A stretch of 36,655 nucleotides of DNA from a virus: UHGV virus genome UHGV-0180966; one strand, written 5' to 3'. Of this stretch, positions 1 through 3,000 are shown piece by piece. A program made the position numbers. How positions within the stretch are numbered: the stretch's first letter is position 1; every line of letters starts with the position of its first letter.

Positions 1-3000
1 GGCCCAAGGAAATAACGCTGATTTAATACTTCGACTCGGGACAAATTAAGGCATACCCGCATTCCTTCGCGGTCGCCATTATGGCGATACCAGAGAGCTT
101 TCTGTGTGTACATGCGTCTCTGTAACTTGCTCTCCTTCACTGTGGTTGCAAGTGACATGAATATCTCCTTCGTTACCGATTAATTCTTTCATCTGACGAA
201 TGAATTCTTCGTCTGACCAGTTATCCGTAAAACTCATGGACGGCCTTGTTGTTTCAAAATATCCCAAAGCTTTTCGAGCAAACTTTTCATTCTTGGTTGT
301 TTAAAGTCTGCTCCGGTTAAAATATTTTTTCGTGAATGCTGCACCGATAAAATTGGGTTGAAAGGGCGAACCGATGCCGCCCCTGCAATAGCGAACTGTT
401 GCATAGGATGCTCCTTCTGTTTGATTGCATAACGAAAACGCCTCGAGTGAAGCGTTATTGGTATGCGGTAAAGCCGCCAACAGGCGGCTATTTGCCATTG
501 ATTCTTTTCAAGAACATCAATGATGTCGTACGGGTTGTCTCCGTTGTCTTCACAAAATGCTTCGAATTCAGCCCATTTCGCGCTGATAAAATCAATTACT
601 CTCATTAATTCGTATTCCATATTTTTCTCCAGACCAAAAGAATGCCGCCCATATAGAGCGGCAAGACTATCAAGGAATGATTTCCAATAATCAGAACAAG
701 TCGGCTCCTGTTTAGTTACGAGCGACATTGCTCCGTGTATTCACTCGTTGGAATGAATACACAGTGCTTATTCGCGAGCTTTGAGCATTGCGTCTGCAAA
801 CTTATATGCAGCGCTTGCTGCATAATTAACAGCTCCATCAGAATCATTATCGATAATCGATGGATTGCTAATCATTGCTTGCATAGCCTTTGCTGCGAAG
901 TAATCACGTAATGTCGCATCACTTGCCATTTCTGGGCGTTTGATATCTGCTTCATAAAACTCGCACATCACTCACCTCCAAGAGCATTTGCAGCCTGTTT
1001 TGCTTTGTGAATCCATAGCAGAGCCATGTAGTACACAGCCTTTTCGTCGGCTCCTGTGATATCTTGCTCTGCCATCCATTTTGTAAATTCAACTGCGTTC
1101 ATATTCACCTCTGTTGTTTATGCCAAAAATAAAGGCCGACTATGCGGCCATCACTTAATTTCCTTCCATCCCAAATCAAGCGTTTCAAATGCTACATCAC
1201 GCATGTTTTCGTCTTTTTCGTCCCGATCCATTTCATCCCACTCATTCTCGGATAAGCCAAGATTATCGAGTGTTACAACTGTCTTTTTGCAAGAATGAAT
1301 GTTTGCGCCGGAATCCAACCAAATTTCAAATTTACGTTCCATATCTCACCTCAAATAAGTGGTTTGCTGCCTAATTTCATTTTCTGGCGACCAACACAAG
1401 TCACACCCATTTCACTGCGTGGCTTGCGGTAGTAAATTCGGTTATTTATGTAATAAAAAAACCTCCTTAGCGGGTTATATGTGTTTCCACTTCTTGCGAA
1501 GCCTAATTGAACTAATGTACGAATCAGACAAGCCATAGATGGCTGATATTTTCCTGTTGCTCAGCGTGGAGCTTCGTATTTCAAGAACATCTTCTGCGGT
1601 AAGTTTCGCGGAACCGTTTCTCTCTCCAGAGACGTGATTTCCTCTCCCTTTAATTTCCATATCCCTTACGTTTTCCAACTGAGTACCAAGCACCAAATGC
1701 TCTGGGTTGATGCATCGCGGGTTATCACACATATGCAGCACTACACGCCCTTTAATGCTCTCAAAAGAGACACCGGCTGATTCGCAGTAGGCTTTCCTGT
1801 GAAGCCTTATCGCAACTGTCTTACCGTTGACTCGAGTTGAAGTGGTACCGTAATTTTGTTTTTGGCTATGCTCTATGCAATCACTTAACATGTTGATCTC
1901 TCTAAAAAGAAAACATCAGGTTAAGCAATCCCTCATATTGGAACCGTCCATTGGCTCGCCATGGGGCCGACGCATGGTTTAAAGACGCGCCGTTCGTCTA
2001 TGTGCTTATGATGTACTCAAAGTTCATTAATGTAAAGTACCAATAGTACTTTTTATGGATATAAAAAGCTCACTACATCATAAGTTATTGAACTTTAAGG
2101 AAATTTATTTTTATCCGAATCGCTTGTAATCGATTGACTGCCTAATGAGGACTTTGGCTAGAATGTGAAGTTGCTCTTCTTCACCTTCTTCTATGTACCA
2201 TCGATCATAAGCGGCATTGTCAGAGATGACGGCAAGCCTGTTCTTTTGCATTTGCAGGCGCTTAACGTGCATTGTTTTCCCGTATACAAACACATAAATG
2301 CCATCGCCATCAAAACAGGTTATGGATACATCAACAAAGATCTCATCTCCCGGATTGATGGTTCCCTCCATGCTGTCACCGCGAACCGTGATGACTTTTA
2401 CGCTTTCCTGTGGCCTTCCTACCATGCAAAGGTAACCCCGCTTTATCACAGGCCAGCGCAAGCCTCTGCGAGAAAGTTTCACGCTCTTTCTGTTGAGCCA
2501 TAAGTTCAACTATATTAGGTATTGACAGTATTATCAGTTCTGTCATAATGTGAACTATAAGTTCACCACAGGAGAGAAGCATGAACGAAGTTACGTTTGG
2601 AGAAGTTATCAAATCCGTTCGGGTTTCTGTTGTGGCTGATGCTTGTGGACTTACGCCAAAAGCCATCTATAAGTGGCTTGAGCGTGGTTCTCTGCCGCGT
2701 ACCGAGTTCACTGGTGAAACCGAATATGCGGATAAGATCGCCAAGGCATCAGGCGGCAAGTACTCAGCAGCACAGATTCGCCGTATCTGTAAACAGCGGT
2801 TTGTTATGTAATAAAAATGCACTTTTAGTACCGAACGGCCCGGTATACGGTCGGGTGCCCGGCGTGGTCAAGGATGACTGTCAATGGTGCACGATAAAAA
2901 CCCAAATTATTTACCTATGGAGATAGTAAGAAATGACACAAGCAAGCTAAAGCAAGCCAACACAGCGAGAAATTGATCGCGCTGAAACTGATTTACTCAT

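What the first reader, a model, noticed from the sequence alone, without database searches (positions are those of the whole stretch)
2111..2509. Repressor-position gene encodes only an S24 peptidase domain; LexA-like cleavage-region motif sits in a different frame
The gene divergent from cro has an intact S24 catalytic core (GDSM Ser, VKRL Lys) but no HTH. In the -1 frame, an ATG at 2501 reads MAQQKERETFSQRLALACDKAGLPLHGRKATGKRK... and stops at 2376. GLPLHGRKATG closely resembles the conserved LexA cleavage-site strand GLPLVGRVAAG (from memory). This suggests a cI/LexA-type repressor that lost its N-terminal DNA-binding domain and carries a frameshift between cleavage region and catalytic core, or an unusual HTH-less S24 protein. 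The operator region is also short (71 bp, one full palindrome plus a half-site).
Basis: partly seen in the sequence, partly recalled or inferred. Interest (0 to 1): 0.6.

Follow-up and report, generated by a model that had tools for sequence, protein, structure and literature searches.

The report
Dead repressor gene in lytic phage
The "S24-only repressor" is the broken remnant of an HK022-type cI repressor gene that lost 317 bases from its middle, in a P22-like coliphage that has also lost cII and its integrase and so has very probably become purely lytic.

Summary
The two reading frames exist as described, but they are the two ends of one broken gene. Window 2050-2620 is 98% identical to the phage HK022 immunity region, except for a 317-bp internal deletion in cI. 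The deletion runs from codon 29 to the second base of codon 134 and shifts the frame.

It removes the helix-turn-helix, the linker, the Ala-Gly cleavage region and the first strands of the S24 domain. "GLPLHGR" is residues 22-28 of the native N-terminal DNA-binding domain. "KATG" is out-of-frame read-through, so the LexA cleavage-site resemblance is coincidental.

The deletion is real. Three other contigs, from separate sample accessions and built with a different assembler, carry it base for base. All 23 other loci with this immunity type carry an intact 235-aa cI.

The same lineage has three further lesions or changes:
- an ochre codon at cII codon 6;
- a clean deletion of the integrase/attP region;
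- lineage-unique substitutions concentrated in operator half-sites (oR2, oR3, oL2, OFR; P about 4e-4).

Best reading: a cI pseudogene in an obligately lytic, probably immunity-insensitive, derivative of a temperate phage. This is a known kind of event (lambda vir, mycobacteriophage D29). Interest is modest.

The parts
2111..2417 (-). 3' remnant of HK022-type cI: third base of codon 134, codons 135-235 and the stop. This is the S24 core with Ser149 (GDSM) and Lys186 (VKRL). It is out of frame with the native start codon.
   Evidence: 100% amino-acid identity to HK022 CI residues 134-235. Pfam PF00717. DNA alignment to HK022. No window-unique substitutions.
2418..2501 (-). 5' remnant of cI: codons 1-28 (MAQQKERETFSQRLALACDKAGLPLHGR). 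It ends at the deletion joint 2417/2418, which has a 2-bp GG microhomology.
   Evidence: The deleted segment is 317 nt (codon 29 to the second base of codon 134 of HK022 cI).
2376..2501 (-). The only frame open from the native ATG: 28 native residues, then 13 out-of-frame residues (KATGKRKSHHGSR), then TGA. It has no HTH and no S24 domain.
   Evidence: No Pfam hit.
2494..2508 (.). oR3, overlapping the cI start codon. TGAAC is changed to TGAGC at 2497; the same change makes CI V2A.
   Evidence: Operator coordinates transferred from the HK75 and X16093 annotations. The substitution is unique among 24 loci.
2522..2565 (+). pR with oR2 (2527-2541) and oR1 (2551-2565). oR2 carries three unique changes: 2527 T>A (which also makes the -35 a consensus TTGACA), 2531 C>T and 2541 C>T. 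There is also 2550 A>G. In oR1, 2556 C>T lies in the spacer and leaves a perfect palindrome, TGAACTATAAGTTCA.
2581..2811 (+). cro, intact, with three lineage-specific residue changes (V21A within the HTH, G70C, Q73R).
2817..2831 (.). OFR, the far-right CI operator downstream of cro. TGTAC is changed to TGCAC at 2820.
   Evidence: HK75 annotation. Unique substitution. The role of a CI operator about 300 bp downstream of OR in immunity is cited in PMC8053113.
2012..2050 (.). oL1 (2012-2026) and oL2 (2036-2050) flanking pL. Unique changes at 2018 (spacer) and 2050 (outermost half-site base of oL2).
2933..3232 (+). cII with TAC>TAA (ochre) at codon 6 (2948-2950). The changed base also lies in the N6 spacer of the TTGC-N6-TTGC CII-binding / pRE -35 motif (2942-2955).
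   Evidence: Motif coordinates from the X16093 annotation.
35534..35801 (-). Joint of a second deletion (35725-35727). The last 65 codons of a 393-aa glycosyltransferase-like gene abut the first 27 codons of an early-left gene. The integrase, the attP region and the neighbouring genes are gone.
   Evidence: Temperate relatives carry GT2(393 aa)-79 aa-105 aa-integrase(385 aa) at this point.

Best explanation
The feature is a pseudogene: the two ends of an HK022-type cI repressor gene left by a 317-bp out-of-frame internal deletion.

Translation from the native ATG (2501) gives a 41-residue peptide with neither an HTH nor a protease domain. The S24 core is stranded in another frame. It has no credible Shine-Dalgarno sequence, and both promoters that could drive it are crippled: pRM needs CI bound at oR2, and pRE needs CII. 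The phage therefore makes no repressor.

The lineage carries further changes:
- an ochre codon at cII codon 6;
- a clean deletion of integrase/attP;
- unique substitutions concentrated in CI operator half-sites (oR2 three times, oR3, oL2, OFR);
- a pR -35 raised to consensus.

I infer a temperate P22-like coliphage with HK022 immunity that has become obligately lytic and probably virulent, meaning insensitive to CI made by resident HK022-immune prophages. Cro still moderates early transcription.

Shown: the deletion and its boundaries, the other lesions, their uniqueness to this lineage, and their recurrence in contigs from other sample accessions.
Inferred: lack of expression of the S24 remnant, the lytic lifestyle, and immunity escape.

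My sub-probabilities are: pseudogene by deletion about 0.95; obligately lytic about 0.85; operator changes selected for immunity escape about 0.6.
For: - Window 2050-2620 matches the HK022, O276 and HK75 immunity regions at 97.7-98.3% in two pieces spanning 887 bp, which leaves a 317-bp gap.
- HK022 CI residues 1-30 and 134-235 map to the two frames. Pfam places HTH_3 at residues 28-72 and S24 at 101-223 of the intact protein.
- The window is a metagenome SPAdes contig with about 2167x coverage. Three other contigs, two from ENA MEGAHIT assemblies and one Logan assembly, are identical over 1475-3400 and differ by one SNP and one 3-bp indel over 6.7 kb.
- All 10 E. coli complete genomes with this immunity region have intact cI. 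So do the 23 loci from IMG/VR, JGI metagenomes, GTDB and RefSeq that had enough sequence, and all share an identical 48-bp oR1-oR2 stretch.
- The truncated proteins occur on 4 contigs, against 656 or more for the 235-aa form, and none of the listed truncated entries comes from an NCBI bacterial genome.
- Of 17 window-unique substitutions in 2000-2960, 6 fall in the 60 operator half-site positions (binomial P = 4e-4). None falls in the 307-bp S24 remnant (Fisher P = 1.5e-5).
- cII ochre codon. No int, xis, erf or kil by tblastn. Deletion joint at 35725-35727 with truncated genes on both sides.
- The large replication, lysis and structural ORFs are uninterrupted.
Against: - No expression or plaque data exist.
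- ATG 2425, in frame with the S24 core, could allow some translation of a 104-aa C-terminal-domain fragment.
- The S24 remnant is 100% conserved, which purifying selection would also produce, although recency explains it equally well.
- oR1 and oL1 keep intact half-sites, so repression may be weakened rather than abolished.
- Operator boundaries come from database annotations of HK022 and HK75. I could not read the original footprinting papers.
- The contig is not closed, so a gene in the unassembled gap between abc2 and window position 1 cannot be excluded.
- Near-identity of the four contigs means they count as one lineage, not as independent evolutionary replicates.
Confidence: 0.8

Rival explanations
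1. The pseudogene and lytic lifestyle are as above, but the operator, cro and OFR substitutions are not adaptive. They would reflect relaxed constraint after the loss of CI, hitch-hiking, or a recombination patch from an unsampled immunity variant. The phage would then be a clear-plaque mutant that is still sensitive to resident CI.
For: - oR1 and oL1 keep intact half-sites, and the oR1 change even improves symmetry.
- The unique substitutions lie in a contiguous tract, 2436-2950, while 2051-2435 has only one. That pattern could mark a recombination boundary.
Against: - The neutral proxy, the dead S24 remnant, has 0 changes in 307 bp, against 6 in 60 half-site positions.
- The coding changes in the tract are mostly non-synonymous or nonsense (cro 3 non-synonymous to 1 synonymous; cI 1 to 1; cII nonsense). 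A divergent but functional allele would not look like this.
- These operator positions are invariant in the 17 distinct wild-type sequences.
- The changes hit positions that never vary among the 12 wild-type half-sites: position 3 in OFR, position 4 in oR3 and position 5 in oR2.
Confidence: 0.25
2. The S24 core is expressed on its own, from ATG 2425 or TTG 2509, and has a function. For example, it could act as a dominant-negative C-terminal oligomerisation domain that poisons the CI of resident homoimmune prophages, or it could work as a UmuD'-like factor.
For: - The remnant starts at about the point where the S24 catalytic core begins (residue 134, 15 residues before Ser149), so it could plausibly fold.
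- The joint creates an in-frame ATG at 2425.
- The remnant is 100% conserved.
- It matches a UmuD-like PHROG weakly.
Against: - There is no SD-like sequence within 5-9 nt of ATG 2425. The nearest G-run is 10 nt upstream.
- TTG 2509 lies in the pRM -10 hexamer.
- Both promoters for this strand depend on proteins the phage lacks, CI and CII.
- No family of same-length HTH-less homologues exists at this genomic position. The two such database hits I inspected have an intact full-length ORF upstream and a third is cut by a contig end.
- The neighbouring genes are an HNH endonuclease and cro, not umuC.
Confidence: 0.06
3. The contig is a decaying, defective prophage inside a bacterial chromosome or plasmid rather than a free lytic phage.
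For: Multiple lesions in lysogeny genes are typical of grounded prophages. The contig is also not circularised.
Against: - There is no bacterial flanking DNA in 36.6 kb.
- Without an integrase or attP it could not be a normally integrated element.
- All large lytic-cycle ORFs are intact.
- Coverage is about 2167x and about 1031x in two assemblies.
- The allele is absent from 5,426 complete E. coli genomes, and none of the listed truncated entries in the protein cluster comes from an NCBI genome.
- A prophage with no repressor could not be held silent.
Confidence: 0.04
4. The frameshift is a sequencing or assembly artefact, and the real gene is intact.
For: None beyond the prior expectation for metagenome contigs.
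Against: - The lesion is a 317-bp deletion, not a homopolymer slip.
- The junction is identical in contigs from other sample accessions made with a different assembler, at very high coverage.
Confidence: 0.01

Closest known systems
Phage HK022 CI repressor (235 aa; 26 kDa repressor, RPC1_BPHK0) and its oL/oR/OFR operators
   Same: The cI remnants, oR, cro, putR and the cII 5' end are 97.7-98.3% identical in DNA. The S24 part is 100% identical in protein. Operator spacing and the divergent cro are the same.
   Different: Codons 29-134 are deleted and the frame is shifted. There are substitutions in oR2, oR3, oL2 and OFR, and cII carries an ochre codon. The chassis is a P22-like podovirus (portal, coat, tailspike, arc/ant/sar), not the HK022 siphovirus.
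Mycobacteriophage D29 and other natural obligately lytic derivatives of temperate phages
   Same: A natural phage whose closest relatives are temperate and whose repressor gene has lost its 5' DNA-binding part by deletion. [quoted passage not shown]
   Different: The host, phage family and repressor type differ. Here the first 28 codons survive, the deletion is internal, and cII and integrase are also lost.
Lambdoid virulent (vir) operator mutants: lambda vir, P22 virB, and HK022 virulent mutants that need an OFR change (Carlson and Little 1993, recalled from memory; that paper could not be read here)
   Same: Multiple base substitutions in operator half-sites at both oR and oL, plus one in OFR. 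Literature available here describes a CI operator about 300 bp downstream of OR that is involved in immunity (PMC8053113).
   Different: Classical vir mutants are laboratory selections and usually retain cI. This lineage comes from metagenomes and also lacks cI, cII and int. Immunity escape is untested.
UmuD / UmuD' (stand-alone S24 proteins)
   Same: The S24 fold, with the GDSM and VK(R/K)L motifs aligning.
   Different: UmuD has its own start codon, a cleavable N-terminal arm and a umuC partner gene. The ORF here has none of these and is 100% identical to the C-terminal part of a repressor.

Membership tests
LexA/CI-type phage repressor (HTH - linker - S24), HK022 CI subfamily | N-terminal helix-turn-helix DNA-binding domain | tested here: not met
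   Pfam finds only Peptidase_S24 in the 132-aa ORF and nothing in the 41-aa ORF. Intact HK022 CI has HTH_3 at residues 28-72, all within the deleted codons 29-134.
LexA/CI-type phage repressor (HTH - linker - S24), HK022 CI subfamily | Ala-Gly self-cleavage region preceding the catalytic core | tested here: not met
   The aligned site, A104-G105 (VQASAGPG) of HK022 CI, lies in the deleted segment. GLPLHGRKATG is residues 22-28 plus out-of-frame codons.
LexA/CI-type phage repressor (HTH - linker - S24), HK022 CI subfamily | S24 catalytic Ser/Lys dyad | tested here: met
   GDSM and VKRL are present. PF00717 matches at E = 2e-18, and the motifs align with UmuD.
LexA/CI-type phage repressor (HTH - linker - S24), HK022 CI subfamily | One uninterrupted ORF of about 235 codons from the ATG that overlaps oR3 | tested here: not met
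   The frame from ATG 2501 stops after 41 codons. The 317-nt deletion shifts the frame.
LexA/CI-type phage repressor (HTH - linker - S24), HK022 CI subfamily | Position between oL/pL and oR/pR, divergent from cro | tested here: met
Stand-alone HTH-less S24 proteins (UmuD-like) | Own translation start, and homologues of conserved short length in the same genomic position | tested here: not met
   Short hits are singletons. L034 and L035 have an intact full-length ORF upstream, and L036 is cut by the contig end. In the 90% cluster the 235-aa form is on 656 contigs and the truncated forms on 4.
Stand-alone HTH-less S24 proteins (UmuD-like) | Partner umuC/polV-type gene adjacent | tested here: not met
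   The neighbours are an HNH endonuclease (1475-1891) and cro.
Virulent operator mutants of lambdoid phages | Substitutions in repressor-binding half-sites of both oR and oL (and OFR for HK022) | tested here: met
   2497, 2527, 2531, 2541, 2050 and 2820 are unique among 24 loci and enriched in half-sites, P = 4e-4.
Virulent operator mutants of lambdoid phages | Growth on a homoimmune lysogen; reduced repressor binding to the mutated operators | not testable with these tools
   Needs plating on HK022 or HK75 lysogens and gel-shift or footprinting assays.
Natural obligately lytic derivatives of temperate phages (D29-like) | Lysogeny functions inactivated, while the closest relatives are temperate and intact | tested here: met
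   cI deletion, cII ochre codon and int/attP deletion. Relatives have intact cI, cII and integrase.
Natural obligately lytic derivatives of temperate phages (D29-like) | Lytic-cycle genes intact, and the phage propagates as a free phage | tested here: inconclusive
   The large ORFs are uninterrupted. Contig coverage is very high, and the lineage recurs in contigs from other sample accessions. No plaque or host data exist, and the contig is not closed.

The most novel reading that the evidence does not exclude
The stranded S24 core (104 aa from ATG 2425) is made at a low level and acts as a dominant-negative C-terminal domain. It would form mixed oligomers with the CI of resident HK022-immune prophages and so help this repressor-less phage break homoimmunity. 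It would be an anti-repressor born from a repressor fragment, working alongside the operator mutations and Ant.
Probability: 0.05. Interest if true: 0.7.

Novelty: new member of a known kind. Interest (0 to 1): 0.3.

Why it matters
For the finding as stated, the result is deflationary. There is no new HTH-less repressor and no displaced LexA cleavage motif, only a deletion pseudogene.

The wider picture has some value. It is a naturally occurring, highly abundant E. coli podovirus caught after converting from temperate to lytic. It carries four separate kinds of lesion or change: cI, cII, int/attP, and the operators including OFR.

If the operator changes do confer escape from HK022-type immunity, this would be a field example of multi-step virulence evolution, which laboratory work on lambda, P22 and HK022 found to be rare. 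It would also be a caution for tools that call a phage 'temperate' from a single S24 or repressor-like hit.

Tried and rejected
- **Sequencing error.** Rejected: contigs from other sample accessions carry the identical junction.
- **Conserved HTH-less S24 family.** A search of 5.8 billion proteins with the 104-aa ORF returned only short singletons. I inspected the contexts of three. Two have intact full-length repressor ORFs with an internal Met called as the start, and one is cut by a contig end.
- **LexA cleavage-site homology.** It still aligned HK022 A104-G105 with the true Ala-Gly sites. The Pfam domain coordinates settle the matter.
- **Intermediates.** I looked for loci with the variant operators but an intact cI, using degenerate-pattern scans of IMG/VR, JGI metagenomes and GTDB. 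None was found. The pattern allowed variation only at five positions, so other variants would be missed. An exact scan of IMG/VR for the deletion junction found nothing.
- **The only other member of the Cro protein cluster (P0037).** It has the wild-type residues at positions 21, 70 and 73, so it is not an intermediate. Its contig could not be fetched.
- **Literature.** The Carlson and Little 1993 paper on OFR (PMC206910) is not held. A search for the sample accessions found nothing.
- **Circular genome.** There is no terminal overlap, so the state of the erf/abc1 module cannot be judged.
- **Rfam.** Only sar RNA reached threshold. No family matched the put sites.
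Full report
**1. What is in the sequence**

The ORF listing shows a 132-codon ORF at 2111-2509 (-) with a TTG start. In another frame, the ATG at 2501 opens a run reading MAQQKERETFSQRLALACDKAGLPLHGRKATGKRKSHHGSR, which stops at 2378-2376.

Pfam finds only Peptidase_S24 in the long ORF (E = 2e-18) and nothing in the short one. The GDSM and VKRL motifs align with the catalytic regions of UmuD. 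cro (2581-2811 +) is divergent. The raw observation therefore holds.

**2. What it is**

Megablast of 2050-2620 hits the immunity regions of phages HK022, O276 and HK75 at 97.7-98.3%. The hit is always in two pieces that span 887 bp of the subject against 570 bp of the query.

The alignment to HK022 shows a single 317-bp gap inside cI. On the coding strand the joint is CATGGTAGG|AAGGCCACAGG. The deleted segment runs from codon 29 to the second base of codon 134, with only a GG microhomology at the ends. Because 317 is not a multiple of three, the frame shifts.

HK022 CI is 235 aa. Pfam places HTH_3 at residues 28-72, HTH_31 at 12-69 and Peptidase_S24 at 101-223. By tblastn, residues 1-30 map to 2501-2412 and residues 134-235 map to 2419-2114, the latter at 100% identity.

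The deletion therefore removed:
- the recognition helices;
- the linker;
- the segment that aligns with the Ala-Gly cleavage site of LexA and lambda CI (A104-G105 in VQASAGPG);
- the first 33 residues of the S24 domain.

"GLPLHGR" is native residues 22-28 of the N-terminal domain. "KATG" is out-of-frame read-through. The likeness to LexA's GLPLVGRVAAG is a coincidence.

**3. Start codon and operator region**

A pRM-like promoter on the minus strand (CTGATA-17-TATAGT) has its -10 hexamer at 2514-2509. This would give an mRNA that starts at about the ATG at 2501, as for lambda cI. The leaderless-transcript reading is my inference by analogy. The TTG at 2509 lies inside that hexamer and is not a credible start.

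The distance between the true cI ATG and the cro ATG is 79 bp, exactly as in HK022. Three 15-bp operators are annotated there in X16093 and HK75.

**4. The deletion is real and rare**

An exact look-up of the window's Cro protein showed that the window is ENA contig ERZ1034905 NODE_344_length_36655_cov_2167. The same protein occurs in ERZ19693148 (a 36,272-bp MEGAHIT contig, multiplicity about 1031), ERZ27289123 and Logan SRR7658643.

These contigs are identical to the window over 1475-3400, including the junction. Over 6.7 kb they differ by one SNP and one 3-bp indel.

By contrast, intact cI is the rule elsewhere:
- All 10 complete E. coli genomes with this immunity region have the extra 317 bp.
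- All 23 loci with enough sequence, found by a degenerate oR pattern in IMG/VR, JGI metagenomes, GTDB, RefSeq and the phage records, encode the 235-aa protein.
- In the 90% protein cluster the 235-aa form is on 656 contigs. The 104- and 112-aa calls are on 4 contigs, all ENA or Logan.

A protein search with the 104-aa ORF returned only short singletons. I inspected three. Two lie downstream of a perfectly intact full-length ORF, so they are gene-calling artefacts. One is cut by a contig end. There is no family of HTH-less S24 proteins at this position.

**5. The neighbourhood tells the same story several times**

(a) *cII.* cII (2933-3232) has TAC>TAA at codon 6, unique to this lineage. The changed base also sits in the N6 spacer of the TTGC-N6-TTGC motif of pRE (coordinates).

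(b) *Integrase.* No integrase, xis, erf or kil is detectable by tblastn. Window 35000-35727 is 99.9% identical to a prophage in which the 80-aa gene is followed by a 393-aa glycosyltransferase-like gene, two small genes and a 385-aa integrase. In the window only the last 65 codons of that 393-aa gene remain. They abut the first 27 codons of an early-left gene at 35725-35727. This is a clean deletion with truncated genes on both sides.

(c) *Operators.* Against 23 other loci (17 distinct sequences), the window has 17 unique substitutions in 2000-2960. Using operator coordinates from the HK75 and X16093 annotations, six fall in half-site positions:

| Site | Position | Change |
|---|---|---|
| oR3 | 2497 | TGAAC>TGAGC |
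| oR2 | 2527 | T>A (also makes the pR -35 a consensus TTGACA) |
| oR2 | 2531 | C>T |
| oR2 | 2541 | C>T |
| oL2 | 2050 | outermost half-site base |
| OFR | 2820 | TGTAC>TGCAC |

Two more fall in operator spacers (2018 and 2556).

Six of 17 substitutions in 60 of 961 positions gives binomial P = 4e-4. The oR operators are invariant in all wild-type sequences. The dead S24 remnant has no unique change in 307 bp (Fisher P = 1.5e-5).

Cro carries V21A (in its HTH), G70C and Q73R. The coding changes in the tract are mostly non-synonymous, which argues against simple import of a divergent functional allele.

(d) *The rest of the genome.* Replication, lysis and structural ORFs are long and uninterrupted.

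**6. Mechanism**

Shown: no repressor can be made from this gene. CII and integrase are also unavailable.

Inferred:
- The phage cannot establish or maintain lysogeny and grows lytically, with Cro as the only regulator at oR and oL.
- Damage to oR2 and oL2 (the partners for cooperative binding), to oR3 and to OFR, plus a consensus -35 for pR, makes it at least partly insensitive to CI from resident HK022-immune prophages. HK022 CI is reported to bind adjacent operators cooperatively and to use an operator about 300 bp downstream of OR for immunity (PMC8053113). From memory, Carlson and Little 1993 found that an OFR mutation is needed for HK022 virulence. I could not read that paper.
- The S24 remnant is probably silent. 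It has no SD-like sequence at a useful distance from ATG 2425, and pRM and pRE depend on CI and CII.

**7. Comparison with what is known**

The gene derives from the HK022 CI family but fails three of that family's defining features (HTH, cleavage region, single ORF). It should be filed as a pseudogene of that family, not as a member or a new variant.

The overall phenomenon matches natural obligately lytic derivatives of temperate phages. [quoted passage not shown] At sequence level it also matches lambdoid vir operator mutants. It is a new member of a known kind.

**8. Caveats**

- The four contigs are one lineage, not independent replicates.
- The contig is open. The SPAdes contig and the two MEGAHIT contigs all start within about 105 bp of each other, in the recombination module.
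- The source environment is unknown.
- Operator boundaries rest on database annotation.
- Perfect conservation of the S24 remnant is compatible with recency, but also with selection. This keeps alive a low-probability dominant-negative reading.

**9. Verdict**

The feature is ordinary, a deletion pseudogene. It sits in a moderately interesting context: a naturally abundant, multiply lesioned, probably virulent ex-temperate coliphage. Interest is 0.3.

Noticed in passing
window 2933-3232 (+), codon 6 at 2948-2950: cII carries a lineage-unique TAC>TAA ochre codon. The same base lies in the N6 spacer of the TTGC-N6-TTGC CII-binding / pRE -35 motif (2942-2955), so it may also act like a cy mutation.
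   Followed up: yes
window 35534-35801 (joint 35725-35727): A clean deletion of the integrase/attP region. The C-terminal 65 codons of a 393-aa glycosyltransferase-like gene are fused to the first 27 codons of an early-left gene. Prophage relatives that are 99.9% identical up to the joint carry two small genes and a 385-aa integrase here.
   Followed up: yes
window 2012-2050, 2494-2565, 2817-2831: Lineage-unique substitutions cluster in CI operator half-sites (oL2, oR3, oR2 three times, OFR), and the pR -35 becomes TTGACA. These positions do not vary in 17 distinct wild-type sequences.
   Followed up: yes
window 4258-7164 (+), insert about 5371-6393: The 968-aa primase/helicase contains a 1023-bp in-frame insert that is absent from the ET650 prophage homologue. 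The insert has a weak LAGLIDADG hit and CPLDEP...THN|T boundaries, so it is very probably an intein.
   Followed up: partly
window 1354-1891 (-): An HNH endonuclease gene (1475-1891) sits directly downstream of pL. It is followed by only the last 31 codons of an N antiterminator (1446-1354). The same HNH-cI arrangement occurs in the E. coli ET650 prophage.
   Followed up: partly
window 1926-1996 (-) and 2831-2892 (+): putR matches HK022. In putL the first hairpin is identical to HK022 and HK75, but the second hairpin has a different sequence (shared with ET650) that still folds into a comparable bulged stem. This suggests RNA-based (put) antitermination with a variant putL.
   Followed up: partly
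No mnt gene is present. In its place is a 218-aa gene about 86% identical to a gene of Jersey-type Salmonella siphophages. Ant may therefore be freed from Mnt control.
   Followed up: partly
window 1-105 and 36655: The contig has no terminal overlap. The two MEGAHIT contigs from other samples both begin at window position 106, just inside the SPAdes contig end, between abc2 and a 62-aa gene, where erf/ssb/abc1 normally lie. The recombination module is unassembled or variable.
   Followed up: partly
window 2111-2417 (-): The out-of-frame S24 remnant has no lineage-unique substitutions in 307 bp, while the adjacent 2436-2950 tract has 13. This could reflect a recent deletion, a recombination boundary at the joint, or selection on the remnant. 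It is unexplained.
   Followed up: partly
L034 3001-3321 and L035 3001-3462: Database 'S24-only' proteins of 106 and 153 aa (Edwardsiella tarda; ENA ERZ794941) are internal-Met gene calls inside intact full-length HK022-like repressor ORFs. This is a recurrent annotation artefact for this family.
   Followed up: yes
window 2581-2811 (+): Cro has three lineage-specific residue changes (V21A in the HTH, G70C, Q73R) against one synonymous change. This could be co-adaptation to the altered operators.
   Followed up: partly
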